Assembly: GCA_028724585.1 (NCBI GenBank)
Contig: JAQYCQ010000036.1
Span: 2,693 to 66,692 of the forward strand
DNA length: 64,000 nucleotides
Source of the DNA: Bacillota bacterium
Lineage (GTDB): Bacteria > Bacillota > Clostridia > Peptostreptococcales > Anaerovoracaceae
Direction: 5' to 3'
Shown piece by piece: positions 2,116-58,042 of the stretch. The notes beneath the pieces are model-generated. The model saw only the letters and a list, made by a program, of their open reading frames with translations. It did not search any database and had not been told where the DNA came from. How positions within the stretch are numbered: the stretch's first letter is position 1; each line of letters begins with the position of its first letter. The position numbers and the translations under genes were made by a program.

Positions 2116-2149
2116 CTGCCCGGAGGGCAGTCATGTGCCGGGACGGCAC
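2116..2149. repeat. Twin GC hairpins with GGA triloops
   Basis: CTGCCC-GGA-GGGCAG (2116-2130) and GTGCCG-GGA-CGGCAC (2135-2149). Both stems are perfect 6 bp, and the two hairpins are separated by 4 nt. Confidence 0.8.
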
Positions 2150-2189
2150 GCAGGCTGAGGATCTTCGGAAGATCAATATCGGTAATTTC

Positions 2190-2226
2190 AGCAGAGCGGG
2201 CGCAGAAGCGTCTGCTCATTTTTTGT
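2190..2226 (+). terminator. Possible terminator of the sortase-like gene
   Basis: The stem AGCAGA/TCTGCT encloses a 15-nt loop and is followed by cattttttg. This is a weak candidate. Confidence 0.35.
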
Positions 2227-2227
2227 A

Positions 2228-2256
2228 TTGACATATACCCCAACGGGGTATATATT
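2228..2256 (+). promoter_or_regulatory. Sigma-A type promoter of csoR-copA
   Basis: TTGACA (2228-2233), an exact 17-nt spacer, then TATATT (2251-2256). The spacer is the first CsoR-type palindrome. Confidence 0.7.
2233..2253. promoter_or_regulatory. CsoR-type operator 1
   Basis: ATATACCCC-aac-GGGGTATAT has perfect 9-bp arms and a G/C tract flanked by AT, as in known CsoR operators. It overlaps the promoter spacer. Confidence 0.7.
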
Positions 2257-2268
2257 GTCATCAGATCG

Positions 2269-2287
2269 GATACCCATGGAGGGTATC
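2269..2287. promoter_or_regulatory. CsoR-type operator 2
   Basis: GATACCC-atgga-GGGTATC has 7-bp arms and lies between the promoter and the csoR RBS. Confidence 0.6.
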
Positions 2288-2321
2288 TGAGCATGGGGGT
2301 TAATAATTAGGAGGGAGAAAA

Positions 2322-2639
2322 ATGGACAAAAACAGCTGCACAGGGAAATGCGAACAGTGTAAGCGTACCAAGGACCGTTCTCCTGAGGAATACAAGTCGC
2401 TTATGAACAGGCTCAGCAGGATAGAGGGCCAGATACGCGGTATCAAGAGGATGGTCGAGGAGGACGCTTACTGCATCGATATCCTCACCCAGTCAGCCGC
2501 GGTGACGGCGGCTATGAATTCTTTTAATAAAGAGCTGCTGGCCAACCATATCAGGACCTGTGTCGCGGAGGATATAAGGAACGGCAATGACGAAACGATA
2601 GAGGAGCTGGTAAAGACCATCCAGAAGCTCATGAGGTAG
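2322..2639 (+). CDS. csoR: CsoR-family copper-sensing transcriptional repressor
   Basis: 105 aa containing [12 protein letters not shown] and the C-H-C ligand set (AYCIDIL ... HIRTC). GGAGGGAG RBS. Confidence 0.9.
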
Positions 2640-2653
2640 AGAGGAGTGAAATT

Positions 2654-5245: not shown

Positions 5246-5640
5246 AGCTTGTTAAAATTTCCTCTGACGTTGTCAGCTTCGCTGTTCTGCGGTGCTCACG
5301 TACTGCGTGTACGCTCCGCTCCTCGACAGCTCGCTTCCTAGTCAGAGAAAATTTTTCCTGCGCTCTGGTGCAATATAAAATAGTAGTATCTAAGAACGCA
5401 CAGCTTCACTGTTCTGCGGTGCTCACGTACTACGTGTACGCTCCGCTCCTCGGCAGCTTGCTTCCTCGCCAGAGAAAATTTTTCCTGCGCTCTGGTGCAA
5501 TATAAAATAGTATTATCTAAGAACGCTCAGCTTCACTGTTCTGCGGTGTTCACGTACTACGGGTACGCTCCGCTCCTCGACAGCTCGCTTCCTAGTCAGA
5601 GAAAATTTTTCCTGCGCTCTGACGAAATAGTATCTAGGCG
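5246..5640. repeat. Tandem repeat with a 127-bp unit: a partial lead-in, two full copies and one diverged copy
   Basis: Units start at 5274, 5401 and 5528 (cagcttc(a/g)ctgttctgcggtg...). Copies differ at only a few positions, and the third decays after ctgcgctctga. Each unit holds an imperfect hairpin (gcggtgctcacgta/tacgtgtacgctccgc) and a tgcaatataaaat element. Confidence 0.9.
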
Positions 5641-5652
5641 CGCTCCGCGCGC
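5638..5652. repeat. GC hairpin with a TCC triloop
   Basis: GCGCGC-TCC-GCGCGC. Confidence 0.75.
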
Positions 5653-5783
5653 GCTGCTCACGCTGCAGAGGCGTTCGGCTGCTCGCGGCGTAAAGCAGCC
5701 GGCTGCTTTCGCCGAAGCAATTTTGCAGCGAAAGCAATGTCAGCGGAGCTGTCGCAGGTCGGCGGATCCTTTGAAATTTAACC

Positions 5784-5810
5784 GGGCTGGTCATAGACCA
5801 GTCCTTTTTT
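5784..5810 (+). terminator. Rho-independent terminator ending the copA 3' region
   Basis: GGGCTGGTC-ata-GACCAGTCC (9 bp, one G-T wobble) followed by T6. It lies 540 nt after the copA stop codon. Confidence 0.75.
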
Positions 5811-5944
5811 CGTACCCCGATATCACACGAAGATGACGAATAGGGTTTTTGTTAAAAAAAAACAAGGTTGTACTTTCTTGTTACAGGCATTAAAATGTAC
5901 TTATGAGTTCAATACAATTCAGCTGAAGCACGGGAGCAGAGCTT

Positions 5945-7695: not shown

Positions 7696-7722
7696 CGGCC
7701 GAAAACTTGGAGGTTGAAATTT

Positions 7723-8337: not shown

Positions 8338-8412
8338 AAAGAACTGCTGATGTAACGGAGGACGGAAACAGGGTATCGGGTGGTCCGCTGCTCCGTAAGA
8401 TTTAATGAAACG

Positions 8413-8452
8413 AAAAAGGCATCTGCCGGGAAAACCGGCGGATGCCTTTTTT
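8413..8452. terminator. Bidirectional terminator between convergent genes
   Basis: aaaaaGGCATCtGCCGG-gaaaa-CCGGCgGATGCCtttttt, with A-run and T-run flanks. Confidence 0.8.
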
Positions 8453-8475
8453 AATACAGTCCGTATTAATCTTTG

Positions 8476-10779: not shown

Positions 10780-10800
10780 GATCTGTCACGTCCCTTTCCT

Positions 10801-12867: not shown

Positions 12868-12905
12868 AATTTCACCTCCTCTTTTAATAATGCAGAATAA
12901 TATAT

Positions 12906-13819: not shown

Positions 13820-13865
13820 ATAAAAAGCACCCTGTTTTTACAGCTGCTATAATGAAGCGGTTTCC

Positions 13866-13899
13866 GTCGGCTCCGCCGACGAGCGTCCGCGGAGCGGAC
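13866..13899. repeat. Twin GC hairpins (TCC loop then GGA loop)
   Basis: GTCGGC-TCC-GCCGAC (13866-13880) and GTCCGC-GGA-GCGGAC (13885-13899), enclosed by an imperfect outer inverted repeat (aagcggtttc ... gaaaagccgctt). Confidence 0.8.
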
Positions 13900-14153
13900 G
13901 AAAAGCCGCTTATATCCAGGCCTGTTTTCATCAATGCCTGCGCGCAGGATAAATGAATTGTTGATAAAGCTCTACAGGCTTGCGTGTCTATAGTATTTAG
14001 ATGTACAAAACAAGAAAACTGTATAGTACTGGATTCTGAGGCTGGATTGAATGGCCTGAATTAATGTGTTAGAATAACGCAACTGCGTTGGAACGGCGCT
14101 GACACGCCGTAAATTGAAACCTGCTTAATGCCAGTGTGTGGAGGTAGAGAAAA

Positions 14154-16205: not shown

Positions 16206-16610
16206 ATGATACTCATGGCATGCGTAGACGACGGAATGGGAATGATGTTCAACCACAGGCGCCAGAGCAGCGACAGCGTACTTAGACTGAGGATGCTGAG
16301 CGTAACGGCAGGCCATAAGTTCTGGATGAATGAATATACTGCTTCCCAGTTCGACAGCGCTGACAGTATAAATGTAAGCGAAGACCCGCTGGGATCCGCC
16401 GGCGAGGATGATTTCTGCTTCGTGGAAAATGTAGATCCGACCGCTCACGCGGACAAGATCCTCCGGATATATCTGTATAGATGGAACAGGGCATATCCTT
16501 CGGACTTTAAGTTCATGCTGGACCTGTCAGGATACCAGTTAGAGAGCAGCGTCGATTTTGCCGGCAATTCCCATGAAAAGATCACAGAAGAAGTCTATAT
16601 AAAGAAATAG
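16206..16610 (+). CDS. Hypothetical protein
   Basis: 134 aa with an AGGAGG RBS, 11 nt after the flavodoxin gene. The N-terminus MILMACVDDGMGMMF faintly resembles a DHFR-like start, but I cannot support a family call. Confidence 0.55.
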   Translation: MILMACVDDGMGMMFNHRRQSSDSVLRLRMLSVTAGHKFWMNEYTASQFDSADSINVSEDPLGSAGEDDFCFVENVDPTAHADKILRIYLYRWNRAYPSDFKFMLDLSGYQLESSVDFAGNSHEKITEEVYIKK

Positions 16611-21045: not shown

Positions 21046-21095
21046 GGCGCGTATTGCGGCCCTCCGGGCAGTAAAACAGAACAAAGCTGATATAC

Positions 21096-21126
21096 ACAGT
21101 TCCGGCCTGGCCGGAACTGTTTTTTT
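21096..21126 (+). terminator. Terminator between the binding-protein and permease genes
   Basis: ACAGTTCCGGCC / GGCCGGAACTGT followed by T6. Confidence 0.8.
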
Positions 21127-21209
21127 GTGGGCGGAGCCCTCGAAAACGGCTTTCTTTAGCCTGAAAACGGTCTTAAATCGCATATTTTACACGCCGAAAC
21201 AACAAATAA

Positions 21210-32718: not shown

Positions 32719-32818
32719 CAGTTTCCGGAACGGCTTTTTTGCGAGATCATGTATTTACGCACGAACGAATGACGCGTACAGGCAGCGCTCGCGCGCAGAA
32801 GTGCCTCCGGCAGCGCCC

Positions 32819-32833
32819 GCGGACGGAGTCCGC
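32819..32833. repeat. GC hairpin with a GGA triloop
   Basis: GCGGAC-GGA-GTCCGC, 11 nt outside the left inverted-repeat arm. Confidence 0.75.
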
Positions 32834-32844
32834 AATGTCCGCGC

Positions 32845-32959
32845 GTGACCCTAACACAGTGATTGCCAAGCTGAAAGCGAAGGCAGAACTGATGTAGGGT
32901 CTGTGCAAAGCCGGCCCGCGAATTTACAGCATTAGCATGAGCGGCTAGCCGGCGACTGC
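32845..32959 (+). repeat. Left arm of the 115-bp inverted repeat
   Basis: gtgaccctaacacagtgattgcc...ggctagccggcgactgc matches the reverse complement of 37849-37963 at 109/115 positions. Confidence 0.9.
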
Positions 32960-33067
32960 GGAGCGGTCGTAAATGTAAATACAGATCCGCGAAACCGGAC
33001 TGTTAATATGGTTCCTTCGATCTGAGCATACGAGTTGTATCATCTTGTTTAAGGAAGGAAAATAACT

Positions 33068-37799: not shown

Positions 37800-37848
37800 A
37801 AACAGGATCCCGCGACCGTTCGACCGCTCACGCGGACAGAGACGCTGA

Positions 37849-37963
37849 GCAGTCGCCGGCTAGCCGCTCATGCAGGTATTGTAAATTCGCGGGCCGGCTT
37901 TGCACAGACCCTACATCAGTTCTTCCTTCGCTTTCAGCTTGGCAATCACTGTGTTAGGGTCAC
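37849..37963 (-). repeat. Right arm of the 115-bp inverted repeat
   Basis: This is the reverse complement of 32845-32959. It has 6 mismatches, 5 of them clustered in one 7-nt patch (gcattag vs atacctg). Confidence 0.9.
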
Positions 37964-37988
37964 GGCGCGTAAACCGCCGCAGGCGTAT

Positions 37989-38003
37989 GTGAGCGGAGCT
38001 CAC
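37989..38003. repeat. GC hairpin with a GGA triloop
   Basis: GTGAGC-GGA-GCTCAC, 25 nt outside the right arm. The 14-bp palindrome gccgggcgcccggc follows it. Confidence 0.75.
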
Positions 38004-39532: not shown

Positions 39533-39736
39533 TTTATGCTCCTTTTCATAAACGGTGCTTTAAATCTAAATCTATAATATACTACCCGAAAATATCTTTG
39601 TAAAGCAATCAATGATCAATAGACGACAGCTCCGCTGACGGATGCCTGGCCGCGGGATCTGCCGCCTTTGTATTTTTCTTAAAGTGATGTCCGTGGAGCG
39701 GACGCGAATGCTTTACTGCATTAATGTGATTTTTCC

Positions 39737-39771: not shown

Positions 39772-40062
39772 AATCAGATTAATAAGGTAAATCCTGTGAT
39801 CAGAATTAGTAGCCTGCCTGTCAGGTGCTTCAGAGAGCCGGCGGCTGGTGTGAGCCGGTGTATCGGGGCAGTGTGAATGGATCTGTGAGGAGCTTCGGGG
39901 AAGGGCCTGAGCCTGTATACGAAGACGCGTTCCCGCGTTACAGGGAGGAGATATCGCGGTATCTTTAGGATAGCTGCTGTATCTTGCTGAGGGGAGAGCG
40001 ATCTCCCGAATAAGGGTGGCACCACGGTCTATCGTCCCTGTGACGATAGACCTTTTTGTTTT
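39772..40062 (+). promoter_or_regulatory. T-box riboswitch leader with a UGG (Trp) specifier
   Basis: GA/AGTA box (gatcagaattAGTAgcc), AG bulge cAGAGAg, distal loop gCTGGTGTGAg, and specifier loop gtGAA-TGG-A (TGG at 39878-39880). T-box sequence AATAAGGGTGGCACCACGG (40008-40026). Terminator GGTCTATCGTC-cctgt-GACGATAGACC followed by Ts. Confidence 0.85.
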
Positions 40063-40080: not shown

Positions 40081-41121
40081 ATGAAAATCAGAAAAGTCAT
40101 GGCGGTATCACTGGTCGCTGTAATGGCAATGTTCACACTCGCTGGCTGCGGAAGCACGAGCTCCGGTTCAGCTTCTTCGGACACGTCTTCCGATTCAGGC
40201 AAGACATATACTGTAGGCATCACTCAGTTCGCTGAGCACGGTTCCCTCGACAACTGCAGGAAGGGTTTCCTCAAGGGCCTCGCTGACGAAGGCATCAAAG
40301 AAGGAGACAACCTCAAGGTAGATTACCAGAACGCTCAGGCAGATACAGGCACTGCCAGCCAGATAGCCGACAGCTTAGTATCGAGCAAGGTAGACATGAT
40401 CTGCGGTATAGCTACACCGACAGCACAGAGCGCCTTCAACGCAGCTCAGAGCACTGACATACCAGTTATCTACACAGCGGTTTCAGATCCTGTAGCCGCA
40501 GGCTTCGCTGACGAAGACGGCAACAGCGTTGGAAACATCACCGGCTCTTCCGATAAGCTCCCTGTTAAGGAACAGCTGGAAATGATCAGGAAGATGATGC
40601 CGGACGCCAAGAAGATCGGTATCCTCTATACTACGAGCGAGACTAACTCAGTTTCCACTATCAAGGAATACAAGAAGCTGGCTCCGGACTACGGATTCGA
40701 GATCGTAGAAAAAGGAATCAACACCATCGCCGATGTAGACATGGCTGCTTCAGACCTGGTAACTAAGGTAGACTGCATCAGCAACCTCACAGACAATACA
40801 GTAGTAGAGTCTCTGCAGACTGTTCTCGACAAGGCTAACGCCGCAGGTATCCCTGTATTCGGATCAGAGATAGAGCAGGTAAGGAACGGCTGCGTCGCTT
40901 CTATGGGTATAGACTACACAGCACTCGGCGAAGAGACAGGCAAGATGGCAGCCAAGATCCTCAAGGGCGAAGCGACTGCCGAAGACACTAAATACATCAC
41001 TGCGTCAAAAGCGCTCCTTTATGTAAACACTGAGGCAGCCGAGAAAGTAAACCTGACTCTCGACCAGGATTACATCAAGGACGCAGCTGAGACCTTCGAC
41101 AAGATCGAAGCCAGCAAATAG
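40081..41121 (+). CDS. ABC transporter substrate-binding lipoprotein (ABC_sub_bind / PF04392-like)
   Basis: Lipobox FTLAGC-G and a Ser-rich linker. The YTVGITQFAEH..LD start is typical of this family. Confidence 0.8.
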   Translation: MKIRKVMAVSLVAVMAMFTLAGCGSTSSGSASSDTSSDSGKTYTVGITQFAEHGSLDNCRKGFLKGLADEGIKEGDNLKVDYQNAQADTGTASQIADSLVSSKVDMICGIATPTAQSAFNAAQSTDIPVIYTAVSDPVAAGFADEDGNSVGNITGSSDKLPVKEQLEMIRKMMPDAKKIGILYTTSETNSVSTIKEYKKLAPDYGFEIVEKGINTIADVDMAASDLVTKVDCISNLTDNTVVESLQTVLDKANAAGIPVFGSEIEQVRNGCVASMGIDYTALGEETGKMAAKILKGEATAEDTKYITASKALLYVNTEAAEKVNLTLDQDYIKDAAETFDKIEASK

Positions 41122-42936: not shown

Positions 42937-43180
42937 CTCTGCCCGCGACGGCTCCGCCGACAGGGCGCTGGCGCGCGGGTCTACCTGCCGCAGCGGATTA
43001 ATATATTATAAGCTGTGCAATTTGCTGAAATCTGTGATTTTGTATTGGGAAATAAACAATATGAATGGCTTAAAGGTGTCTTTTTACGTAGAAATATATT
43101 AAGCAATCATTTATAATTGGTTTGTCAGAAATGATTTTAAATGACTTATTGTATCCAGATGATTGGAGCGACTAATCTAT

Positions 43181-45592: not shown

Positions 45593-45854
45593 TATCGAAG
45601 ATCAAACGGGCCTGCGTCCGATCCTCGGACAGGGCCGCTTAGCTGGATCCGGCGGCGGGCGCCGGTCTCGCTCCATAAGCCGCCTGCGGCGGCAGAAAAC
45701 AAAACATCAAGGACAGAACAAGCCGGGGGTGGTATTTCCATCCGTGGCTTCTCTGTCGTTATGCGGATTCGGCCGGCTGGGGCCGGCCCTTCGCTAAGAG
45801 GCGGGCGTGTGAGGACGCCCTTAAGATCCGCGGATACGGGAGGAAAAAGCAGAT

Positions 45855-46553: not shown

Positions 46554-49500
46554 ATGGCAAATGGGATCAGAGGACTTATCGAAGCGGTGGAAAAAGGCGG
46601 CATAGTCTGCGCTGCCGGAGCGAACAGGGGCAGGACGGCATACGCCTGCGCGCGGCTCATGAAGGAAAAGGGCGGCCAGATGCTCATCATAGTGCCGTCG
46701 GAAGAACGGGCCAGGGAAATGAAGGATTTCCTCAATTTCTTCAGCCCCGATAAAGAGGTTTTCGTATTTCCGGATGAGGAGAGGCACACCTTCCACTACG
46801 ATGCTATGAGCAGGTCGGGCAGCTTCGGCAGGATAGAGTGCCTGACAGCTATGCTGGCAGGCAAGGAAGGCTTTTTTGTAGCACCGGTGATGGCGGCGTC
46901 CAGAGGCATGGTGTCTAAGGAAGAGTTCGCCGCCAGCGAGGCGCGTCTTGTCCGCGGAGCGGACGTGGAGGGCGACCTCAGGGAAATGCTTGCCAGCGCG
47001 GGCTATGAGAGATGCTCCATGGTAGAGGCTCCGGGCCAGTTCAGCGTCAGGGGCGGGATAGTGGACGTATTTCCGCCGGGCAGCGAGAATCCTTACAGGA
47101 TAGATTTTTTCGACACAGAGGTAGATGACATCAGGCAGTTCGAGACCTTCTCGCAGAGGTCCCTGGGCTCGCTGGACAGTCTGGTCATCCCGCCGGCGGC
47201 AGCCAGGGATCCGGAGGACAGCGGCAGCGCTTCATATATCTGGGACTACATGGCAGAGGGCAGCATGATCTGCGCCGATGACTGGAACAGGATCTGCGAG
47301 GCCCGGGATCTGGCCGACAGGGAGTGGGCGGCTTCCGCGGCAGCTGACAGCGGCCGTGACGATGAGGAAGACGCTGATGGAGCAGACAGGCAGGAAAGTA
47401 CAGAGGTTTTCCTGGATCTCAAGGATCTGGCGGCAGGGCTTGATAAGGCGGGAGATTTCTTCATAACGGAACCGCTCGACGCCCAGCTTAAGGAAATGAG
47501 CGGGGATGTGGAGAGAGTACGCGTGTCCTGCGCGCCGGCCTCTTCTTACAGCGGACAGATGAAATTCTTCGGCGACGACCTTAAGAGAATGTCAGGGGAG
47601 GGCTATGAGATCCATGTGGCATGCTCCACAGACGAGAGGCTTTCCAACCTCAGGGGCTTCGTGGACAGGATGGAGATAGTCGGGAGCATCTTCTTCGACA
47701 GCGGTTTCCTGCCGGAAGGCATGATCTTCTCGGACGATAAGCTGGCTTTTATCTCGGACAGCGATATCTTCAGGTCGGCTAAGAAGAAGAGAAAGAAGAA
47801 AAAGAAGAGCCGCAATAAGATGGCGGCCTTCGCGGACTTCAACGAAGGAGATTACGTCGTTCACGAGAACCGCGGCATCGGCATATTCCTGGGCATAGAG
47901 CCTATGGTGGTCGATGACGTGAGACGCGATTACATGGCTATCCAGTACGCCGGCGGGGACATGCTCTATGTGCCTGTAGAGCAGATGGACCTGGTGCAGC
48001 CGTATATCGGTTCGGGCGGAAACACGCCTAAGGTCAGCAGGCTGGGGTCGGCTGACTGGACAAAGACGAAGGCCAAGGCAAGGGCGGCTGTCGAGAATAT
48101 GGCAGAGGAGCTGGTAGAGCTCTCGGCCGAGCGCAAGATGGAGCCGGGCTTCCAGTTCAGCCCTGACACAGTGTGGCAGAAGCAGTTCGAGGACCAGTTC
48201 CCTTACGAGGAGACTGACGACCAGCTGCGCTGTATAGATGAGATAAAGATGGATATGGAGAGCCCCTGGCCTATGGATAGGCTGCTCTGCGGAGACGTGG
48301 GCTTCGGCAAGACCGAGGTCGCGGCGCGCGCCGTGTTCAAGTGCATCATGGATGGAAAGCAGGCGGCGGTGCTGGTACCTACGACCATCCTGGCCAACCA
48401 GCACTACGAGAAGTTCAAGGAACGTTTCAGCAAGTTCCCTTGCACTATCGATATGCTTTCAAGGTTCAGGTCGGACGCCGAGCAGAAAAAGACCGTGGAG
48501 GCTGTAGCGGAAGGAAAGGTGGATGTGCTCATCGGAACTCACCGCCTGCTCTCCCAGGATGTAAAATTCAAGGATCTGGGCCTGCTGGTCATAGACGAGG
48601 AGCAGCGCTTCGGCGTACAGCATAAGGAAGCTATCAAAAAGCTCAAAAAGAATGTGGACGTGCTGTCGCTCTCAGCTACCCCTATACCTCGTACCCTCCA
48701 CATGTCCCTTTCAGGGATCAGGAGCATGAGCACCATAGAAGAGGCGCCTGAGGACAGGTTCCCGGTACAGACCTATGTGCTGGAGGAGGACGATTCGCTT
48801 CTGCGCGGCATCATCATGCGCGAGCTGGACCGCGGCGGCCAGTGCTTCGTCATCTACAACAGGGTGCGCGGCATCAATATGATCGCCGACAGGATACGCG
48901 ATCTGGTGCCTGAGGCAAGGGTGGCATGCGCCCACGGCCGCATGGACGAACGCAAGCTCGAGGATATCATGGACGAGTTCGTGGGACACGAGTACGATGT
49001 CCTGGTGGCGACGACCATCATAGAGTCCGGCATAGACATACCGGCGGCCAATACGCTCATAGTCCTCGATTCCGACAGGTACGGGCTGGCCCAGCTCTAC
49101 CAGCTGAGAGGCAGGGTGGGCCGTTCCAATGTCGCGGCCTACGCCTATTTCATGTATCAGAAGAACAAGGTGCTCAGCGATGTGGCAGAGCGCCGTCTCA
49201 GAGCTATCCGCGAGTTCACGGAGTTTGGCTCGGGCTTCAGGATCGCCATGAAAGACCTGGAGATCCGCGGAGCCGGCAATCTGATCGGCACCGAGCAGTC
49301 CGGCCACATGATGACGATAGGCTACGAGCTCTACTGCAAGATGATAGACGACGCGGTAAGGCGCCTCAGGGGCGAAAAGGTCGAAGAGGAAGAGATGGAG
49401 GTCACGGTCGATATCAGCGCCGACGCCTTCATTTCATCCGACTACATCAGCGACGAGAGCGTCAAGCTCGACATGTACAAGCGCATAGCCGGCATAAGGA

Positions 49501-49832: not shown

Positions 49833-49926
49833 CGACGACTCCGTCGACATCAAACCTCCGGTCTATGTGGTATAATATTTTACAAGCGTAATGAGGCGGA
49901 CCGGCGTAAGCGGAGGGACGGTAATC

Positions 49927-50853: not shown

Positions 50854-50879
50854 CAGCTGCTGATCTGAAGGAGAACAAA

Positions 50880-51491: not shown

Positions 51492-54400
51492 GCTTTACAC
51501 ATCTACACGTACATACCGAATACAGCCTGCTGGACGGGGCCTCGCGCCTGCAGCCGCTCATAGACAGGGCTGTGGAGCTGGGCATGGATTCCATGGCTAT
51601 CACCGACCACGGTGTCATGTTCGGCGTGGTGAATTTCTGGAAGGCCTGCAGGAAGGCCGGGATAAAGCCGGTCATAGGCTGTGAGGTCTACACAGCTGCC
51701 CGCACCCGCTTCGACAAGGACCCGGAAAGGGACAAGAGAAGGGGCCATCTCATCCTGCTGGCCGAGAATAATGAAGGCTACAAAAATCTCATAAAGATAG
51801 TCTCGAGATCATTTACAGAGGGCTTTTACTACAAGCCGCGTACGGATATGGACCTGCTCAGGCAGTACAGCGGCGGGATAATAGCTACCAGCGCCTGCCT
51901 GGCCGGTGATGTGCAGAGGTTGCTGATGGCCGGCGACTATGACGGCGCAAAAAAGAAGGCGCTTGAGTTTCAGGACATATTCGGCAAGGGCAATTTCTTT
52001 CTGGAGATCCAGAACCAGGGCCTGCCGGAAGAGAAAAGGATAAACCCGCTGCTGATAAAGCTGAGCAGGGAGACCGGAATAGAGATGGTGGCCACAAACG
52101 ACGTCCACTATATCCGCAGAGAGGACGCTTCCTATCACGATGTCCTGCTCTGCATACAGACCGGAGCCTATCTCACAGATACCGACAGGCTGAGATTCGC
52201 CAACGACCAGTTCTACCTTAAGTCCGAGGAAGAGATGCGCAGCCTGTTCCCGGAGATTCCGGAAGCTATAGAAAACACCCATAAGATAGCGGAGCGCTGC
52301 AATGTGGAGTTCGAGTTCGGCCACCTTCACCTGCCGAAATTCGATCCGCCTGCCCAGTATCCTGATACAGAATCCTATCTCAGGGCGCTGTGCGAGAAGG
52401 GCGTCAAAGAGAGATACGGCACGGTCACTCCGGAGCTCAGGGAAAGACTGGAGTACGAGCTCAGCACTATAGTAAACATGGGCTATGTGGAATACTTCCT
52501 CATAGTCTGGGATTTCATAAACTACGCAAAATCAAAGGGTATACCGGTGGGACCGGGCAGAGGCTCCGCGGCGGGAAGCGTCGTCGCCTATTGCCTGAGG
52601 ATCACGGATATAGACCCTATAAGATACAACCTCATCTTCGAGCGTTTCCTCAATCCGGAGAGAGTCAGCATGCCTGATATAGACGTCGACTTCTGCTTCG
52701 AACGCAGAGGAGAGGTAATAGAATATGTAGTCAGGAAATACGGGCGCGACCACGTGTCCCAGATCATCACATTCGGCACGATGAAGGCCAAGCAGGCCAT
52801 CAGGGATGTGGGCCGCGTTATGCAGATCAGCTACGCCAGGACAGACGCTGTAGCCAAGATGATCCCCTTCGACCTGCATATGACTCTGGATAAGGCGATA
52901 AGTATCAATCCAGAGCTCAAGCGTGTCTACGATACTGATCCGGAGATACACAGGATGCTGGATGTAGCAAAGTCTATAGAGGGCATGCCGAGAAACGCCG
53001 GCACACACGCCGCCGGAGTCGTCATTTCCAGGGATCCGCTCGACAGCTACGTTCCTCTGTATCTGTCGGATAAAGGCATATCCGCCCAGTTCGAAAAGGA
53101 CACTATAGAAGAACTGGGACTGCTGAAGATGGACTTCCTCGGCCTGAGAACCCTGACAGTCATACAGGACGCGGTCGACGCCATAAAAGACTCATACGGC
53201 ATAGACGTCGATTTCACGGAGATGGATTTCGACGATCCGGAAGTGTATAAGATGATCTCGTCCGGAGACACCCTGGGAGTATTCCAGCTGGAGTCGGGCG
53301 GGATGACCCAGTTCATGAAGAACCTGGAGCCAGACTGCATAGACGATATCATAGCCGGCATATCCCTATACAGGCCGGGCCCTATGGATTCTATACCTAC
53401 ATATATAGCGAACAAGAAGAATCCGGCAGGGATAACCTATCTGGATCCCCATCTCGAGCCTATACTCAAGGTCACCTACGGCTGCCTGGTATACCAGGAG
53501 CAGGTAATGCAGATAGTAAGGGACCTGGCGGGATACTCATACGGACGGAGCGACCTGGTCCGCAGGGCCATGTCCAAGAAAAAAGAAGACGTCATGCTGA
53601 AGGAAGAGGAGTACTTCATCTACGGCAGGCCGGCAGAGGACGGTCAGGCCGCAGTCAAGGGCTGCATAGCCAACGGCATTCCCGAGGAAGTGGCAAAAGA
53701 GATCTTCGCCCACATGGTCAGCTTCGCTTCATACGCTTTCAACAAGTCGCACGCTGCTGCTTACGCGGTCGTAGCCTACGAGACGGCCTGGCTCAAATGC
53801 CACTATCCGGCTGAGTTCATGGCAGCCCTGATGACTTCCGTCAGCGACGATCCGGCCAAGGTGGCTAAATACATCAGGAACTGCAGGGAACACGGAGTCG
53901 ACGTGCTGCCGCCTGACATAAACCAGAGCAGCAGGAAGTTCACAGCTCACAAGGGGACCGTAAGGTTCGGCATGAGCGGCATCAAGAACGTCGGCGACGG
54001 AGTGATTGAGGAGATCCTCCGTGCACGCGGAGCGTGCGGAAGTTTTCAGGATTTTCCGGGCTTCATAGATTCTCTGGATATTTCCAGGATCAACAAGAAA
54101 GCCATCGAGAGCCTGATAAAAGCGGGCACTTTCGATTCCCTTGAGCCTAACAGGGCCAGGCTGATGGCAGTCTACGAGGACCTTATAGATACAGCCCACG
54201 ATCTCTCCAAAAACAACGTGGCGGGCCAGCTTTCCCTCTTCAGCGATTTCGAGGAGCTGGGCGGCATAGACATGGGCAGCAGCATGACCTTTAAGATGCC
54301 TGAGGTGAAGAACTTCAGCAAAAAGACCATGCTGGAGATGGAGAAAGAGATGCTGGGAGTGTACGTCTCGGGCCACCCGCTCGACGACTACAGGGACAGG

Positions 54401-54946
54401 CTCAGCGAAATATCGAGCATAGATACAGAGAAGATGCTCCATCCTGAGGAGCACGGTATCAATGACGGCGACAGGGTAGTACTGGGCGCCATGATCCGTT
54501 CGCTGCGCACAGTCATAACAAAGAAAAACACGATAATGGCTTTTGTCCAGGTCGAGGATCTCTACGGAGAGACCGAGGTCATCGTATTCCCGCGCACCTA
54601 CGAGCGTGTAAGGAGCATGCTCGCCGACGACAGGATAGTCGTGATAAACGGCAGGATCCAGCTCAGGGACGATGACGACGCGAGGATAATAGCCGACGAG
54701 CTCGTAGACATAGACGATTACTATACAGTAGAGGACGACAGGGACGTCTACCTGACCATACCTGCCGGAACAGACGAACGCAGAGCCCTGAGCGCTATCT
54801 CGGGCGTGATCTCGAAGTATCCGGGAAAGCGCAGGGTCTACATACTGCTGAGCCGGAACGGCAAAAGGCTGGCGGCTAACAGCACGGTCAGCCCGTGCAG
54901 CAGATTTTTTGCTGAGATACAGAGCATCATCGGAAAGGAGCGATAG
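51488..54946 (+). CDS. dnaE: DNA polymerase III alpha subunit
   Basis: PHP domain (FTHLHVHTEYSLLDG), GPGRGSAAGS, and DIDVDF. Confidence 0.96.
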   Translation: MSFTHLHVHTEYSLLDGASRLQPLIDRAVELGMDSMAITDHGVMFGVVNFWKACRKAGIKPVIGCEVYTAARTRFDKDPERDKRRGHLILLAENNEGYKNLIKIVSRSFTEGFYYKPRTDMDLLRQYSGGIIATSACLAGDVQRLLMAGDYDGAKKKALEFQDIFGKGNFFLEIQNQGLPEEKRINPLLIKLSRETGIEMVATNDVHYIRREDASYHDVLLCIQTGAYLTDTDRLRFANDQFYLKSEEEMRSLFPEIPEAIENTHKIAERCNVEFEFGHLHLPKFDPPAQYPDTESYLRALCEKGVKERYGTVTPELRERLEYELSTIVNMGYVEYFLIVWDFINYAKSKGIPVGPGRGSAAGSVVAYCLRITDIDPIRYNLIFERFLNPERVSMPDIDVDFCFERRGEVIEYVVRKYGRDHVSQIITFGTMKAKQAIRDVGRVMQISYARTDAVAKMIPFDLHMTLDKAISINPELKRVYDTDPEIHRMLDVAKSIEGMPRNAGTHAAGVVISRDPLDSYVPLYLSDKGISAQFEKDTIEELGLLKMDFLGLRTLTVIQDAVDAIKDSYGIDVDFTEMDFDDPEVYKMISSGDTLGVFQLESGGMTQFMKNLEPDCIDDIIAGISLYRPGPMDSIPTYIANKKNPAGITYLDPHLEPILKVTYGCLVYQEQVMQIVRDLAGYSYGRSDLVRRAMSKKKEDVMLKEEEYFIYGRPAEDGQAAVKGCIANGIPEEVAKEIFAHMVSFASYAFNKSHAAAYAVVAYETAWLKCHYPAEFMAALMTSVSDDPAKVAKYIRNCREHGVDVLPPDINQSSRKFTAHKGTVRFGMSGIKNVGDGVIEEILRARGACGSFQDFPGFIDSLDISRINKKAIESLIKAGTFDSLEPNRARLMAVYEDLIDTAHDLSKNNVAGQLSLFSDFEELGGIDMGSSMTFKMPEVKNFSKKTMLEMEKEMLGVYVSGHPLDDYRDRLSEISSIDTEKMLHPEEHGINDGDRVVLGAMIRSLRTVITKKNTIMAFVQVEDLYGETEVIVFPRTYERVRSMLADDRIVVINGRIQLRDDDDARIIADELVDIDDYYTVEDDRDVYLTIPAGTDERRALSAISGVISKYPGKRRVYILLSRNGKRLAANSTVSPCSRFFAEIQSIIGKER

Positions 54947-54949
54947 ACG

Positions 54950-55912
54950 ATGAAGAGGATCGGCGTACTGACGAGCGGAGGAGACGCTCCCGGCATGAAC
55001 GCGGCCGTAAGAGCCGTAGTGAGGGGAGCCATTTTTAACGAAATGCAGGTTTACGGGATATTCGACGGTTACGAAGGCCTTATGAACGGCGAGATAGAGG
55101 AGCTGGGAAGGTCGTCCGTCTCCGACATCATCCACAGGGGAGGCACGATACTCAGGAGCTCGAGGAGCCCTAAGTTCAAGACACCTGAAGGCACGAGAAG
55201 GGCGATAGAACAGGCTGAGAAGTTCGGCCTGGAAGGTATCGTTGTCATAGGCGGCGACGGCTCCTTCAGGGGTTCGGTCAACCTGCTCCGCGGAGGGATA
55301 GTGACGGTGGGAGTGCCGGGCACCATCGACAACGACCTGGGCTACACCGACGAGACAATAGGCTTCGATACCGCTGTAAACACTGTAGTATCGTTATTAG
55401 GCAATATACGCGACACGACCATAGCCCACGGCTGTGCGACCGTAGTCGAGGTAATGGGCAGGAACTGCGGTGACATAGCCCTGCGCGCGGGACTGGCGGC
55501 CGGCGCCGAGTCCATCCTGATCCCGGAGGTCCCTTATGATATAGACGCTATATGCGACAAGATGATCGCCGGCAAAAAGCGCGGAAAACACCACAGCATA
55601 ATAATGAAGGCAGAGGGAGTGGATATCCCGACGCCTGAGCTGGCCCACCTGCTGGAGGAACGCACCGGCATCAAGACACGTACCGTCATCCCGGCTTACA
55701 TCCAGAGAGGCGGATCGCCTACAGCCTTCGACAGGCTCCTTGCCAGCCGCCTGGGCTACAAAGCGGTAGAGCTCCTGAGGGACGACGTGCGCGGCGTGGC
55801 GGTCGGCGTCCGCGGCGAGGAGATCATAGTCAAGGATATCGAAGAAGCCATAGACAGCAAAAATAAGCCGGACCTTAAGAATATTGAGCTTGCCTCGATA
55901 TTGTCAATATAA
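54950..55912 (+). CDS. pfkA: ATP-dependent 6-phosphofructokinase
   Basis: [26 protein letters not shown] and PGTIDND. Confidence 0.96.
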
Positions 55913-55966
55913 CAGCTGTCTGCTATAATCCTAAATTATATTCAGGCAAAGAACATCTGATCTTAC

Positions 55967-56000
55967 GTGGACTCCGTCCACGACCGGCCGCGGAGCGGCC
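55967..56000. repeat. Twin GC hairpins (TCC loop then GGA loop)
   Basis: GTGGAC-TCC-GTCCAC (55967-55981) and GGCCGC-GGA-GCGGCC (55986-56000), followed by a third hairpin with the stem GAGACGCGC/GCGCGTCT. Confidence 0.8.
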
Positions 56001-56075
56001 GAAGAGACGCGCTCCGCGCAGGTCCGCAGCGCGCGTCTTACGTGCCTTTAAACACAGAATAGGAGTATTGGATTA

Positions 56076-57914
56076 ATGTGTGGAATAGTCGGATATATCG
56101 GTGAGGAGAATGCCACCGGAATTATTATAGAAGGGCTTAAAAAGCTCGAGTACAGAGGCTATGACTCTTCAGGCATAGCGCTGTGCACAAAAGAAAACAA
56201 ACTGCTTGTAAGGAAGAAGAAGGGCAGGATAGCCAACCTCGAGAAGATGATAAAGGGCGAGGACCTGACCGCTAACCTGGGCATAGGCCATACCAGATGG
56301 GCAACCCACGGCGCGCCTTCGGATGTCAACGCTCATCCTCATACAGACATGAGCGGTAAGATAGCCGTAGTCCATAACGGTATCATCGAGAACTTCATGG
56401 AGCTCAAGAAAGAGCTGACCGAGAAGCATGGGGTTGAATTCAAGTCAGAGACAGATACAGAGGTCGTAGCCAACCTTATAGGCGTCTGCTACGAAGAAGA
56501 AAAGGACCTTGAGGCCGCTGTCTACAAAGCCCTTAAAAGAGTGAGAGGCTCATACGGACTGGGAGTCGTGTGCGCTGACGAGCCTGACAAGCTGGTGGCA
56601 GCCCGCAAGGACAGCCCGCTGATCATCGGCCTCGGAAAGCGCGGCAACTTCATAGCCAGCGATATCCCGGCAGTCCTCAAATACTGCCGCCAGATCTACC
56701 TGCTCGAGAACAACGAGATGGCAGTCATCAAAGAGAACGACGTCAAGATCTACGACGCTGACCATAAGGAAGTCCAGAGAGAAGTCTTCAACGTAACATG
56801 GGACGCTGACGCTGCCGAGAAAGAAGGCTACGAGCACTTCATGCTCAAGGAGATCCACGAACAGCCTGACGGTATCAGGGACACTCTGGTGCGCCGCATG
56901 GACGACGACGGCGAGATAGTCCTCGACGGCATCAATCTCACTAAGGAAGATATAGAAAATTTCGATAAGGTCTACATCGTAGCCTGCGGTACGGCTTACC
57001 ACGCCGGTCTGATCGGCAAATACGCCATCGAGAAGCTGGCAAAGATCAGCGTAGAGGTAGATGTGGCATCCGAGTTCAGGTACAGAGACCCGTTCATAGA
57101 TGACAAGACCCTCTTTATAGCTATAAGCCAGTCGGGCGAGACCCTCGATACCCTGGCAGCCCTGCGCGAAGCCAAGAAGAAGGGAGCCCGCGTGCTCTCG
57201 GTGGTAAACGTGGTAGGCAGCTCGGTGGCACGTGAGTCAGACGACGTATTCTACACATGGGCAGGCCCTGAGATAGCGGTGGCATCCACAAAGGCCTACA
57301 CCACACAGCTGGTCTGCATGTACATGATCGGCCTCTATATGGGCCGCAAAAAGGGCATAGTTTCCGACGAGACCTACAGGAAATACATAGACGAGCTCAT
57401 GGCTGTTCCTGAAAAGGTATCGAAGATCCTGGATCAGGAAGAAAAGATCGCTGATATCGCCAAGAAGCTCTATACTAAGAACGGTGTGTTCTACATAGGC
57501 AGAGGCATTGACTCGGCTGTATCCTACGAAGGCTCCCTCAAGCTCAAGGAGATCTCATACATCAACTCCTTCGCCATAGCTGCAGGCGAGCTCAAGCACG
57601 GCACCATCGCCCTCATAGAACAGGGCACCCTGGTGATCGCCATCGCCACACAGGATAAGCTCTTCGAAAAGATGCTCTCCAACATCAAGGAAGTAAAGGC
57701 AAGGGGCGCTTTCGTCATGGCGGTAGCCAAGGAAGGCAACACCGCTATAGAAGAAGAGTCAAACGAAGTCATCTACATTCCTCAGTGCATGGATGAGATA
57801 ACACCGCTGCTCTCCATAGTACCTCTCCAGCTCTTCGCTTATTACGTAGCCAGGAACAGAGGCTGCGACATCGATAAGCCTAAGAATCTGGCTAAGAGCG
57901 TTACAGTAGAATAA
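56076..57914 (+). CDS. glmS: Glutamine--fructose-6-phosphate aminotransferase
   Basis: MCGIVGY N-terminal nucleophile, two SIS domains, and a C-terminal ...KSVTVE. Confidence 0.96.
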   Translation: MCGIVGYIGEENATGIIIEGLKKLEYRGYDSSGIALCTKENKLLVRKKKGRIANLEKMIKGEDLTANLGIGHTRWATHGAPSDVNAHPHTDMSGKIAVVHNGIIENFMELKKELTEKHGVEFKSETDTEVVANLIGVCYEEEKDLEAAVYKALKRVRGSYGLGVVCADEPDKLVAARKDSPLIIGLGKRGNFIASDIPAVLKYCRQIYLLENNEMAVIKENDVKIYDADHKEVQREVFNVTWDADAAEKEGYEHFMLKEIHEQPDGIRDTLVRRMDDDGEIVLDGINLTKEDIENFDKVYIVACGTAYHAGLIGKYAIEKLAKISVEVDVASEFRYRDPFIDDKTLFIAISQSGETLDTLAALREAKKKGARVLSVVNVVGSSVARESDDVFYTWAGPEIAVASTKAYTTQLVCMYMIGLYMGRKKGIVSDETYRKYIDELMAVPEKVSKILDQEEKIADIAKKLYTKNGVFYIGRGIDSAVSYEGSLKLKEISYINSFAIAAGELKHGTIALIEQGTLVIAIATQDKLFEKMLSNIKEVKARGAFVMAVAKEGNTAIEEESNEVIYIPQCMDEITPLLSIVPLQLFAYYVARNRGCDIDKPKNLAKSVTVE

Positions 57915-57934
57915 ACAAAATACGGATAAAATAC

Positions 57935-58000
57935 AAAAGGGCCGCGAGGGCGGTGGAAGCACGATATCAGAGCTTCCGCCGTCTTCGCGGCCCTTGCTTT
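57935..58000. terminator. Long imperfect hairpin terminator after glmS
   Basis: aaaaGGGCCGCGAGGGCGGTGGAAGC - 11-nt loop - GCTTCCGCCGTCTTCGCGGCCCtt, forming a ~27-bp stem. Confidence 0.7.
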
Positions 58001-58009
58001 TACGCTGTC

Positions 58010-58042
58010 GTCAGCTCCGCTGACATTGCGCGCGGAGCGCGC
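58010..58042. repeat. Twin GC hairpins (TCC loop then GGA loop)
   Basis: GTCAGC-TCC-GCTGAC (58010-58024) and GCGCGC-GGA-GCGCGC (58028-58042). A further hairpin GCGGGCGA...TCGCCCGC lies at 58048-58077. Confidence 0.8.

What the first reader, a model, noticed from the sequence alone, without database searches (positions are those of the whole stretch)
2116..58042. Dispersed family of GC-rich 6-bp-stem hairpins with a GGA/TCC triloop, seen only in intergenic spacers and often paired as twins
I found eleven perfect N6-(GGA or TCC)-revcomp(N6) hairpins by eye: 2116, 2135, 5638, 13866, 13885, 32819, 37989, 45616, 55967, 55986, 58010 and 58028 start eleven to twelve of them depending on how the 5638 copy is counted with the near-perfect set. 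Five near-perfect copies (one mismatch or wobble) start at 5739, 39625, 39689, 42947 and 49833. For a perfect 6-bp stem with one of two fixed triloops I estimate about 0.5 chance hits in 64 kb. All the copies I saw lie in non-coding spacers, which make up roughly a tenth of the window. Many share the core GCGGAGC/GCTCCGC. Four times they occur as twins separated by 3-4 nt, and three of those twins have the same TCC-then-GGA polarity (13866-13899, 55967-56000, 58010-58042). Because that pattern reads the same on either strand, the twin module is symmetric. Some copies are clearly homologous rather than merely iso-structural. The 18-mer gcaatgtcagcggagctg occurs at 5735 (+) and 58003-58029 (-), and gtcagcggagctgtcg recurs at 39621-39641 (-). 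A GTGA-tetraloop variant, GTCCGC-GTGA-GCGGAC, lies at 61156. Together these look like a REP/BIME-like intergenic element family that I do not recognise for Clostridia. Possible roles include 3'-end mRNA stabilisation, termination or pausing, a protein-binding site, or the relic of a tiny mobile element. GGA loops are what CsrA-type proteins bind, but the mix of polarities argues against a simple RNA-only model.
Basis: partly seen in the sequence, partly recalled or inferred. Interest (0 to 1): 0.7.

Follow-up and report, generated by a model that had tools for sequence, protein, structure and literature searches.

The report
REP-like mini-hairpin repeats in a Clostridia genome
The window carries a real family of about two dozen tiny GC-rich hairpin repeats between genes, best read as a new lineage-specific family of the well-known bacterial REP/REPIN type of miniature repeat rather than a new kind of element.

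Summary
The window has 15 perfect N6-(GGA|TCC)-revcomp(N6) hairpins, against 0.69 expected from shuffles. Twelve lie in the 10% of the window that is non-coding, and about 10 one-mismatch or tetraloop copies lie there too. The copies are homologous, not merely iso-structural. They share a polarity (T before the stem, G after it), flank-defined subfamilies and a common T:T mismatch variant. Paired copies nearly always run TCC then GGA.

The loops are really GNA/GNNA (GGA, GAA, GTGA, GCGA) closed by C:G. The core is therefore GCGNAGC/GCGNNAGC, the published "mini-hairpin DNA" motif.

The organism is an uncultured Anaerovoracaceae (window = GCA_034087305.1). The family recurs in 17.5 kb of held-out sequence from the same species, in a sister species and in four metagenome contigs. 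It is at background level in 1.3 Mb from other relatives.

Two Acidobacteria (Pyrinomonadaceae) loci carry a RayT-type IS200-like transposase gene flanked by the same kind of hairpin, and one shares a 10-nt flank with a window copy.

Best reading: a REP/REPIN-like family. A cognate transposase in this genome was not found and could not be searched for. The CsrA, terminator and CGTC-REP readings fail their tests.

The parts
2116..2149 (+). Direct doublet: CTGCCC-GGA-GGGCAG, linker tcat, GTGCCG-GGA-CGGCAC. It starts 9 nt after the stop of gene 1331-2107 and lies upstream of a canonical terminator.
   Evidence: In two other strains the first stem has a G>A mismatch.
5638..5652 (-). GCGCGC-TCC-GCGCGC, left member of a wide TCC..GGA pair.
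5724..5754 (+). Subfamily A unit: GCGAAAGC mini-hairpin, AAT, GTCAGC-GGA-GCTGTC, G (T:T mismatch variant).
13855..13910 (.). Twin module (REPIN-like): AAGCGGTTTCC, GTCGGC-TCC-GCCGAC, gagc, GTCCGC-GGA-GCGGAC, GAAAAGCCGCTT. It can also fold as one long hairpin.
   Evidence: D16; -41 kcal/mol long hairpin
21057..21141 (.). Wide TCC..GGA pair of one-mismatch copies (CGGCCC-TCC-GGGCAG and GTGGGC-GGA-GCCCTC) bracketing a canonical terminator.
32801..32833 (.). Short TGCC-TCC-GGCA hairpin followed by GCGGAC-GGA-GTCCGC, next to the 122-nt repeat.
32954..32968 (+). GACTGC-GGA-GCGGTC (one mismatch) at the end of the 122-nt repeat, followed by GTAAAT.
37822..37837 (-). Subfamily B unit: CAGCGTCTCT, GTCCGC-GTGA-GCGGTC, G.
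   Evidence: Same flank as L123 13933.
37989..38003 (+). GTGAGC-GGA-GCTCAC between convergent genes.
39625..39703 (.). Wide TCC..GGA pair (GACAGC-TCC-GCTGAC and GTCCGT-GGA-GCGGAC) in the divergent murC / T-box spacer.
42947..42961 (-). GACGGC-TCC-GCCGAC (mismatch subfamily), just after a canonical terminator.
45616..45630 (-). GTCCGA-TCC-TCGGAC, 24 nt after the prs stop codon.
49834..49848 (-). GACGAC-TCC-GTCGAC immediately after the mfd stop codon. The sister species has a different family hairpin in the same spacer.
55961..56010 (.). Twin module: TTAC, GTGGAC-TCC-GTCCAC, gacc, GGCCGC-GGA-GCGGCC, GAAGAGACGC. It lies between a promoter-like site and glmS.
58000..58042 (.). Twin module: TTACGCTGTC, GTCAGC-TCC-GCTGAC, att, GCGCGC-GGA-GCGCGC. 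It lies between convergent glmS and a phosphorylase gene.
61143..61172 (+). Subfamily A unit with a tetraloop: CAGCGTGAGCAAT, GTCCGC-GTGA-GCGGAC, G. It starts 14 nt after the ahcY stop. The orthologous copies in two related species have a GGA loop.
46950..46964 (+). Look-alike inside mfd coding sequence (GTCCGC-GGA-GCGGAC). It is conserved as coding sequence in the sister species and is probably not an element.
54023..54037 (+). Look-alike inside dnaE coding sequence.
59925..59939 (-). Look-alike inside the 5' part of ahcY coding sequence.

Best explanation
This is a lineage-specific family of REP-type (repetitive extragenic palindrome) miniature elements in an uncultured Anaerovoracaceae bacterium. 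Each unit is a polar GC-rich hairpin of about 17-35 nt. Its consensus on the G-loop strand is T, GTCNGC, GNA or GNNA, GCNGAC, G, followed by GTAAG, GAAAA-CCGC or GCAGG. The core is GCGNAGC/GCGNNAGC, the sequence known to form unusually stable single-stranded DNA mini-hairpins. Units often sit as inverted doublets (TCC then GGA on either strand) that can fold as two small hairpins or one long one, like REPINs/BIMEs. Shown: the family exists, is confined to spacers, is structurally constrained, has copy-and-paste subfamilies, is specific to this clade, and some copies persist at orthologous sites. Inferred: the copies spread as single-stranded DNA hairpins handled by an IS200-like HUH tyrosine transposase of the RayT type, as with classical REPs. 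Once inserted, mostly just past stop codons, they are tolerated and may act as 3'-UTR or leader RNA structures.
For: The excess over chance and the restriction to spacers are clear. The copies are homologous. The T(-1)/G(+1) polarity is seen 12 times against 1 for its mirror (p=0.003). Four copies share the same T:T mismatch. Subfamilies share 10-13 nt flanks. A 48-nt twin module is 79% identical at two unlinked loci and recurs in the rplJ-rplL spacer of a related metagenome contig. Within spacers that hold two copies, the order is TCC then GGA six times and GGA then TCC never. One twin folds best as a single long hairpin. In held-out sequence of the same species, 17.5 kb carries 6 perfect copies, 5 of them intergenic, against about 0.2 expected. 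For clade specificity, the density is 0.23 per kb here, 0.18 in the sister species L119, 0.05 in L006 and 0.009 in 1.3 Mb from 75 other relatives. Orthologous copies persist in L119 and L006. A Y1 transposase gene (PF01797, E=2.6e-27, named RayT by JGI) is flanked by 5-6 hairpins of the same design in two Pyrinomonadaceae loci. One of these shares the flank TTACGCTGTC with window position 58000. The loops fit the GNA/GNNA mini-hairpin rule: the 7-mer GCGGAGC alone melts at 73 C (PMC13037366).
Against: No transposase gene was found in the window, the 17.5 kb extension or any related locus held, and the rest of the genome could not be searched. The canonical unpaired 5' GT[AG]G foot of RAYT-associated REPs (PMC6006769) is absent; here GT[C/G]N is base-paired. 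The units are shorter than the usual 20-40 nt. Three strains at about 99% identity show no clean presence/absence polymorphism of a unit, so recent mobility is not demonstrated. At two orthologous sites the related species has a hairpin with a similar stem but another loop (GCG, or a 10-nt loop). That could also mean remodelling in place.
Confidence: 0.65

Rival explanations
1. The hairpins evolved in place and were not moved. Pre-existing intergenic hairpins, such as 3'-end mRNA stabilisers, would have been reshaped in this lineage towards GC-rich stems with GNA loops. The driver would be selection, for example a lineage-specific hairpin-binding protein, or gene conversion among copies.
For: At the pfkA-glmS spacer L006 has GGCCGC-GCG-GCGGCC where the window has GGCCGC-GGA-GCGGCC. 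At rplJ-rplL the L006 genome has two unrelated-loop hairpins where L107 has a family twin, with conserved outer flanks. The ahcY copy differs only in its loop (GGA or GTGA) across three species. No unit presence/absence polymorphism is seen among strains.
Against: Flanks of 10-13 nt outside the stem and a 48-nt module are shared between unlinked loci. The same T:T mismatch recurs in four copies. The orientation rule for pairs is fixed. All of these are hard to obtain by independent local evolution. Gene conversion would still imply a repeat family.
Confidence: 0.18
2. The hairpins are RNA-level regulatory sites: GGA-loop hairpins bound by CsrA or another RNA-binding protein, or processing or pause sites in transcripts.
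For: Many copies lie 1-55 nt after stop codons or in a leader. GGA is the CsrA core motif (general knowledge). A T...G flank would extend the stem by a U.G pair on the GGA strand only.
Against: About half the copies present UCC, not GGA, on the sense strand of the adjacent gene. Copies also occur after terminators and between convergent genes. The loop set GGA/GAA/GTGA/GCGA with a C:G closure fits the DNA mini-hairpin rule better than a CsrA site, which needs GGA in a larger loop.
Confidence: 0.07
3. The hairpins are factor-independent transcription terminators, or binding palindromes for a double-stranded DNA regulator.
For: GC-rich hairpins downstream of genes; 15-bp palindromes resemble operators.
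Against: None is followed by a T-run, and none was called by the terminator scan, whereas canonical terminators sit beside them. The stems vary freely with compensating changes while the loop is conserved, the opposite of a sequence-specific operator.
Confidence: 0.05
4. The signal is a chance or compositional artefact of GC-rich spacers.
For: Some host spacers are GC-rich (0.53-0.64).
Against: 15 observed against 0.69 in dinucleotide-preserving shuffles. GGA/TCC make up 12 of the 19 perfect triloop hairpins in spacers. The family is replicated in held-out sequence. It is absent from relatives of similar GC content.
Confidence: 0.01

Closest known systems
REP / BIME / REPIN elements with their RAYT (TnpA-REP) transposases (E. 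coli, Pseudomonas, Stenotrophomonas; PMC3116915, PMC6006769)
   Same: Short GC-rich extragenic palindromes, many per genome, mostly just downstream of genes. Inverted doublets can fold into one long hairpin. Subfamilies occur within a genome. The family is lineage-specific with long vertical persistence. Single-stranded hairpins are the likely substrate.
   Different: The core is only 15-17 nt with a 3-4 nt loop. There is no unpaired 5' GT[AG]G foot. The host is a Clostridia (Anaerovoracaceae) genome. No cognate RAYT has been identified in this genome.
RayT-flanking hairpins in Pyrinomonadaceae (Acidobacteria) metagenome contigs (L088, L116-L118), found here
   Same: 6-bp GC-rich stem with a GGA/TCC triloop and GCGGAGC core. 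Both orientations occur. The flank ACAGC(G/A)TAAA / TTACGCTGTC is shared with window 58000-58024. Several copies sit on both sides of a 148-aa PF01797 transposase.
   Different: Different phylum. The stems are GCCYGC rather than GTCNGC. There the unit is fused to a second CCTGGGGC-GYAA-GCCCCAGG hairpin. Only one window copy shares the full 10-nt flank.
CGTC-tagged REP superfamily (Di Nocera et al. 2013, PMC3733652)
   Same: Many copies read CGTC...GACG at the stem base. Dimers in opposite orientation predominate. No associated transposase is known. Copies lie mostly downstream of genes.
   Different: In that superfamily the CGTC tag is unpaired, stems are 8-9 bp starting with A:T pairs, loops are 4-5 nt and a CCA tail follows. 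None was reported in Firmicutes. Here GTC is paired, stems are 6-7 bp, loops are 3-4 nt and there is no CCA tail.
Mini-hairpin DNA motif GCGNAGC / GCGNNAGC (Hirao and co-workers; review PMC13037366)
   Same: The conserved core (GCGGAGC in 14 of 24 copies, plus the GCGTGAGC, GCGCGAGC and GCGAAGC variants and the GCGAAAGC/GCGTAAGC flank modules) obeys the published sequence rule.
   Different: The motif is a physical-chemistry finding, also noted at phage and plasmid priming sites. It has not, to my knowledge, been described as the core of a dispersed repeat family.

Membership tests
REP/REPIN-RAYT system | Short imperfect palindromes repeated many times, essentially confined to intergenic DNA | tested here: met
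   15 perfect and about 10 near copies in 64 kb. Twelve of the 15 perfect copies lie in the 10% non-coding DNA, against 0.69 expected. Replicated in 17.5 kb of held-out sequence.
REP/REPIN-RAYT system | Conserved unpaired 5' GT[AG]G tetranucleotide at the foot of the hairpin | tested here: not met
   The foot is GT[C/G]N and pairs with N[G/C]AC. The recurrent asymmetric tags are a 3' GTAAG/GAAAA/GCAGG on the G-loop strand. Definition taken from PMC6006769.
REP/REPIN-RAYT system | Inverted doublets (REPIN/BIME) able to form a larger hairpin | tested here: met
   Three tight and three wide TCC-then-GGA pairs, and no GGA-then-TCC pair. The 13855-13910 module folds as one long hairpin. Further twins occur in L090, L106, L107 and L113.
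REP/REPIN-RAYT system | A cognate, usually single-copy RAYT gene flanked by the same REPs in the same genome | not testable with these tools
   tblastn with a RayT found nothing in the window or in any of the roughly 1.5 Mb of loci held at the time. The rest of GCA_034087305.1 could not be read. The arrangement is seen only in Pyrinomonadaceae contigs.
REP/REPIN-RAYT system | Lineage-specific family, vertically inherited, with copies at orthologous sites | tested here: met
   Density is 0.23 per kb here, 0.18 in L119, 0.05 in L006 and 0.009 in 75 other relatives. Orthologous copies lie after ahcY, in the glmS-PNP spacer and after mfd.
CGTC-tagged REPs (Di Nocera 2013) | Unpaired CGTC tag, 8-9 bp stem beginning with A:T pairs, 4-5 nt loop, CCA tail | tested here: not met
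   GTC is paired, stems are 6-7 bp and G:C-rich, loops are 3-4 nt and there is no CCA tail. Compared with the paper's definition.
CsrA-binding GGA hairpins | GGA exposed in a loop on the transcribed strand, typically in leaders or overlapping the ribosome-binding site | tested here: not met
   About half the copies show TCC on the sense strand. Most lie 3' of genes or after terminators.
Intrinsic terminators | GC-rich hairpin followed directly by a T/U run | tested here: not met
   No family hairpin has a T-run, and none was called in the 45-64 kb scan. Canonical terminators lie next to them.
Mini-hairpin DNA motif | Sequence GCGNAGC or GCGNNAGC (C:G closing pair, G...A loop ends) | tested here: met
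   14 of 24 copies have GCGGAGC. Variants are GCGTGAGC, GCGCGAGC and GCGAAGC. Flank modules are GCGAAAGC, GCGTGAGC and GCGTAAGC. The rule comes from PMC13037366. Actual folding was not measured.
MITE (miniature inverted-repeat transposable element) | Terminal inverted repeats of a parent IS, plus target-site duplications | tested here: inconclusive
   Wide pairs have unrelated interiors. No direct repeats flanking units were seen on reading the flanks. No parent IS is available.

The most novel reading that the evidence does not exclude
This would be an undescribed REP class shared between Clostridia (Anaerovoracaceae) and Acidobacteria (Pyrinomonadaceae). It would be built from the GCGNAGC/GCGNNAGC DNA mini-hairpin, would lack the canonical GT[AG]G foot, and would be served by a compact 148-aa IS200-like RayT. 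That implies either horizontal transfer of a RayT/REP system across phyla or convergence on the most stable possible single-stranded DNA hairpin as the transposase substrate.
Probability: 0.25. Interest if true: 0.6.

Novelty: new member of a known kind. Interest (0 to 1): 0.4.

Why it matters
REP/REPIN families are best known in Proteobacteria, and I found no description of one in Clostridia. Di Nocera 2013 lists no Firmicutes among its hosts, and the RAYT/REPIN papers I retrieved do not mention Firmicutes.

This family gives a very small, clean example. Its conserved core coincides with the physically characterised DNA mini-hairpin. That points to recognition at the single-stranded DNA level and makes it directly testable with oligonucleotides and a candidate transposase.

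Practically, the repeats mark a genus-level clade of gut or anaerobic-digester Anaerovoracaceae. They can confound assembly and small-RNA or terminator prediction in these MAGs. They also sit in the leader or 3' UTR of core genes (glmS, rplJ-rplL, mfd, ahcY), where they may affect expression.

Tried and rejected
- **Rfam.** The gathering scan of the window found only a T-box. Permissive scans of the 127-nt and 122-nt repeat regions gave nothing credible.
- **tRNA scan.** None found.
- **CGTC-REP membership.** Considered because many copies read CGTC...GACG. Rejected after reading the family definition.
- **Strain comparison for mobility.** Three strains at about 99% identity showed only point changes in stems. 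They also showed an 11-nt and an 80-nt indel outside the units. One search produced a mostly useless dump because an anchor failed.
- **Metagenome pattern scan.** About 25 of the 30 hits were chance matches in contigs above 55% GC. Five were informative.
- **Viral contig scan.** Zero hits.
- **Search for a Clostridial RayT.** The homologue search returned only relatives at 78% identity or more; the few that carry an organism name are Pyrinomonadaceae. The representative search and the cluster look-up gave no taxonomy, so this line was dropped.
- **Look-ups that failed.** Two used ORFs whose start or strand I had guessed wrongly.
- **Covariation statistics.** Not used as evidence, because the copies were ascertained by requiring pairing. 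The 7-mer-anchored test replaces them.

Full report
**The observation**

A direct scan finds 15 perfect N6-(GGA|TCC)-revcomp(N6) hairpins in the window.

One hundred dinucleotide-preserving shuffles give 0.69 +/- 0.89 such hairpins, with a maximum of 3. With a simple gene map, 6,381 nt (10%) of the window is non-coding, and 12 of the 15 perfect copies lie there. One-mismatch copies in spacers are at 5739, 21057, 21127, 32954, 39625, 39689, 42947, 49834 and 58038. Among all perfect 6-bp triloop hairpins in spacers, 12 of 19 have a GGA or TCC loop.

The copies were found by requiring pairing, so I also ran a test anchored only on the 7-mer GCGGAGC/GCTCCGC.
- The 7-mer is eight times denser in spacers (2.64 against 0.33 per kb).
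- At least 3 of the next 4 flanking positions are complementary in 12 of 17 spacer occurrences, but in only 3 of 19 genic ones.

A few look-alikes sit in genes, and the loop is not strictly GGA (see below).

**The copies are related, not just similar in shape**

I oriented all copies so that the loop reads GGA. The consensus is T, GTCNGC, GGA, GCNGAC, G.
- The pair T before the stem and G after it occurs in 12 of 24 copies. Its mirror image occurs once (p=0.003). The units therefore have a polarity beyond the loop.
- Four copies (5739, 39625, 42947, 49834) share the same T:T mismatch at the second stem position.
It shows subfamilies with shared flanks.
  - Subfamily A is CAGCG(W)RAGCAAT, GTCMGC, loop, GCKGWC, G. 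Copies are at 5739, 58010 on the minus strand and 61156, plus three in the flanking sequence of the same species.
  - Subfamily B is CAGCGTCTCT, GTCCGC-GTGA-GCGGTC, G. Copies are at 37822 on the minus strand, plus two outside the window.
- The twin modules share about 48 nt at 79% identity between 13862-13909 and 55963-56010 (family D16). The same module recurs in metagenome contigs, for example L107.

When two copies share a spacer, the order is TCC then GGA in six cases: 13866/13885, 55967/55986, 58010/58028, 5638/5739, 21057/21127 and 39625/39689. The opposite order never occurs. Two pairs are GGA-GGA: 2116/2135, and one in the extension.

The 13855-13910 module folds best as one long hairpin of -41 kcal/mol. 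The other two twins fold as two small hairpins.

**The loop rule**

In the window and in 17.5 kb of adjoining sequence from the same species, family members carry GGA, GAA, GTGA or GCGA loops, always closed by C:G. The core is thus GCGNAGC or GCGNNAGC.
- A 2026 review of "mini-hairpin DNA" states that exactly these sequences form extraordinarily stable single-stranded DNA hairpins.
- Among all 64 triloops, only GNA does so.
- The 7-mer GCGGAGC alone melts at 73 C (PMC13037366).

Subfamily A units are preceded by a second minimal motif (GCGAAAGC, GCGTGAGC or GCGTAAGC) and then AAT. My inference is that the G-loop strand as single-stranded DNA is the form that matters. The complementary TCC loop has no such property. 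The loop set also does not match a CsrA site.

**The organism and the distribution of the family**

The window is 100% identical to NCBI GCA_034087305.1 contig JAXDYP010000020.1. The closest named relatives are Anaerovoracaceae MAGs (Clostridia, Peptostreptococcales). GlmS is 88% identical to L006 and 89% identical to an unnamed sister species, L119.

| Sequence set | Perfect family hairpins per kb |
|---|---|
| Window | 0.23 |
| L119 (sister species) | 0.18 |
| L006 | 0.05 |
| 75 other related loci (1.3 Mb) | 0.009 |

Across all 80 related loci (1.41 Mb), perfect GGA/TCC hairpins number 12.

Held-out sequence of the same species is L123 11174-20975 and L125 1-7678. It has six perfect copies, five of them intergenic, against about 0.2 expected.

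One metagenome scan with a twin pattern returned 30 loci. Most were chance hits in contigs above 55% GC. Four contigs of 48-51% GC (L090, L106, L107, L113) carry true twins with the same flanks. L107 is the secE-nusG-rplKAJL region of a close relative of L006. Its NusG is 85% identical to a NusG-family protein encoded on the same 299-kb contig as L006, and the twin sits in the rplJ-rplL spacer. No viral contig matched.

**Orthologous spacers**

- The hairpin after ahcY is present in all three species. It is GTCCGC-GGA-GCGGAC in L006 and L119 and has a GTGA loop in the window.
- The first hairpin of the glmS-PNP twin is identical in L119, the second is degenerate there, and the twin is absent in L006.
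- The pfkA-glmS twin is absent in L119. L006 has GGCCGC-GCG-GCGGCC where the window has GGCCGC-GGA-GCGGCC.
- In the rplJ-rplL spacer, the L006 genome has two hairpins with other loops where L107 has a family twin.
- After mfd, the window and L119 carry different family hairpins at slightly different offsets.
- Three strains at about 99% identity differ only by point changes in stems and by indels outside the units.

So copies persist for a long time, the repertoire differs between species, and recent movement is not demonstrated. The "same stem, other loop" cases leave room for remodelling in place or gene conversion.

**The link to a transposase**

One of the metagenome hits, L088 (55% GC), has a 148-aa ORF that matches PF01797, the IS200-like Y1 transposase, at E=2.6e-27. 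Five to six hairpins of the same design flank it on both sides, for example ttacgctgtc-GTCCGC-TCC-GCGGAC.

Its relatives are annotated by JGI as "REP element-mobilizing transposase RayT" and by NCBI as Pyrinomonadaceae IS200/IS605 transposases. A second locus encodes a protein 83% identical to the L088 transposase (L116-L118). It is likewise flanked by GCCTGC-GGA-GCAGGC-GACAGCATAAAGCC units.

The 10-mer TTACGCTGTC that precedes the L088 hairpins also precedes the window hairpin at 58010. It occurs only twice in the window, against about 0.1 expected.

This shows that 6-bp GGA-triloop hairpins are a real RayT-associated REP type, and it suggests homology with the window family. It does not show that this Clostridia genome has such a gene. 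tblastn found none in the window or in any locus held. My attempts to reach a Clostridial RayT through the protein tools gave no taxonomy.

**Position relative to genes**

Copies start 1-55 nt after stop codons: mfd 1-2 nt, gene 1331-2107 9 nt, ahcY 14 nt, prs 24 nt, tetR 47 nt and pfkA 55 nt. They lie before or after canonical terminators, between convergent genes, and once in a divergent promoter spacer.

The 55967 twin lies between a strong promoter-like site (TTGTCA-17-TATAAT, 55901-55929) and glmS, so probably in the glmS leader. That site is conserved in L006 and, as I read the spacer, in L119.

None of the hairpins has a T-run and none was called terminator-like. The G-loop strand is the sense strand in about half the cases.

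**Comparison with known families**

The architecture matches REP/BIME/REPIN elements in these respects: intergenic location, GC-rich palindrome, inverted doublets, subfamilies, lineage specificity and persistence.

It fails the defining unpaired 5' GT[AG]G foot (PMC6006769). It also fails every structural criterion of the CGTC-tagged REPs, despite the CGTC...GACG look of many copies (PMC3733652). That survey lists no Firmicutes hosts.

I therefore file it as a new family of the REP kind, not as a member of a named REP family. The mini-hairpin core is the most distinctive feature.

**Verdict**

- REP-like dispersed element family: about 0.65 confidence.
- Mobilisation by a RayT-type enzyme in this lineage: plausible but unproven, perhaps 0.35.
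- Main rival: remodelling in place or gene conversion of pre-existing hairpins, about 0.18.

Interest is moderate. This is a known kind of element in an undescribed host clade, with a neat and testable structural core.

Noticed in passing
window 5274-5621 (region 5246-5830): A 127-nt tandem repeat of 2.7 copies at 93% identity lies downstream of the copA-like ATPase gene. Each unit folds as a long hairpin (-41 kcal/mol, z=-3.7). The region varies between strains: one has an extra 80 nt between hairpins 5638 and 5739, and another has a scaffold gap. There is no Rfam match. The ORF 5495-5836 over it is probably spurious.
   Followed up: partly
window 32844-32965 and 37843-37964: A 122-nt repeat is present as an inverted pair (93% identical) bracketing 4.9 kb of housekeeping genes (pduL, deoC-like, murA, a 2-hydroxyacid dehydrogenase). 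It is strongly structured (-59.9 kcal/mol, z=-4.6) and has no Rfam match. Family hairpins sit just outside both ends of each copy, so it may be another mosaic repeat or a small RNA gene.
   Followed up: partly
window 55901-56075: glmS has a conserved promoter-like site and a leader of about 140 nt, but no glmS ribozyme match in Rfam. The leader is unalignable with those of the two nearest species apart from the promoter and ribosome-binding site.
   Followed up: partly
window 39787-40042 (+): A T-box leader (Rfam RF00230, 114.6 bits) lies upstream of gene 40081-41121. The small minus-strand ORF 39774-40025 over it is spurious.
   Followed up: no
L123 14600-14720 and 19960-20063 (same genome, just right of the window): A repeat of about 75 nt (CCCCGGAATCGCGGC..AACGCGTCATACAGA..CAGCGTAAGC.ATGTCCGCG..GCGG.CGTAAG) ends in a family hairpin. 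This shows that some units are the tail of longer repeated modules.
   Followed up: no
L088 1-1000 and L116 9700-10800 (Pyrinomonadaceae contigs): RayT genes are flanked by composite repeats: a GGA-triloop hairpin, then GACAGCATAAAG, then a CCTGGGGC-GYAA-GCCCCAGG hairpin. This is a REPtron-like arrangement in Acidobacteria that I did not find described in the papers read.
   Followed up: partly
window 57915-57935 compared with L124: An 11-nt indel (a short A-rich duplication) lies just after the glmS stop codon between two strains of about 99% identity. It is unrelated to the hairpins.
   Followed up: yes
window 16439-16454 (-): A GTCCGC-GTGA-GCGGTC hairpin of the subfamily B type lies inside the called 134-aa ORF 16206-16610, which has no Pfam match. 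Either an element sits in a gene or the ORF is not real.
   Followed up: no
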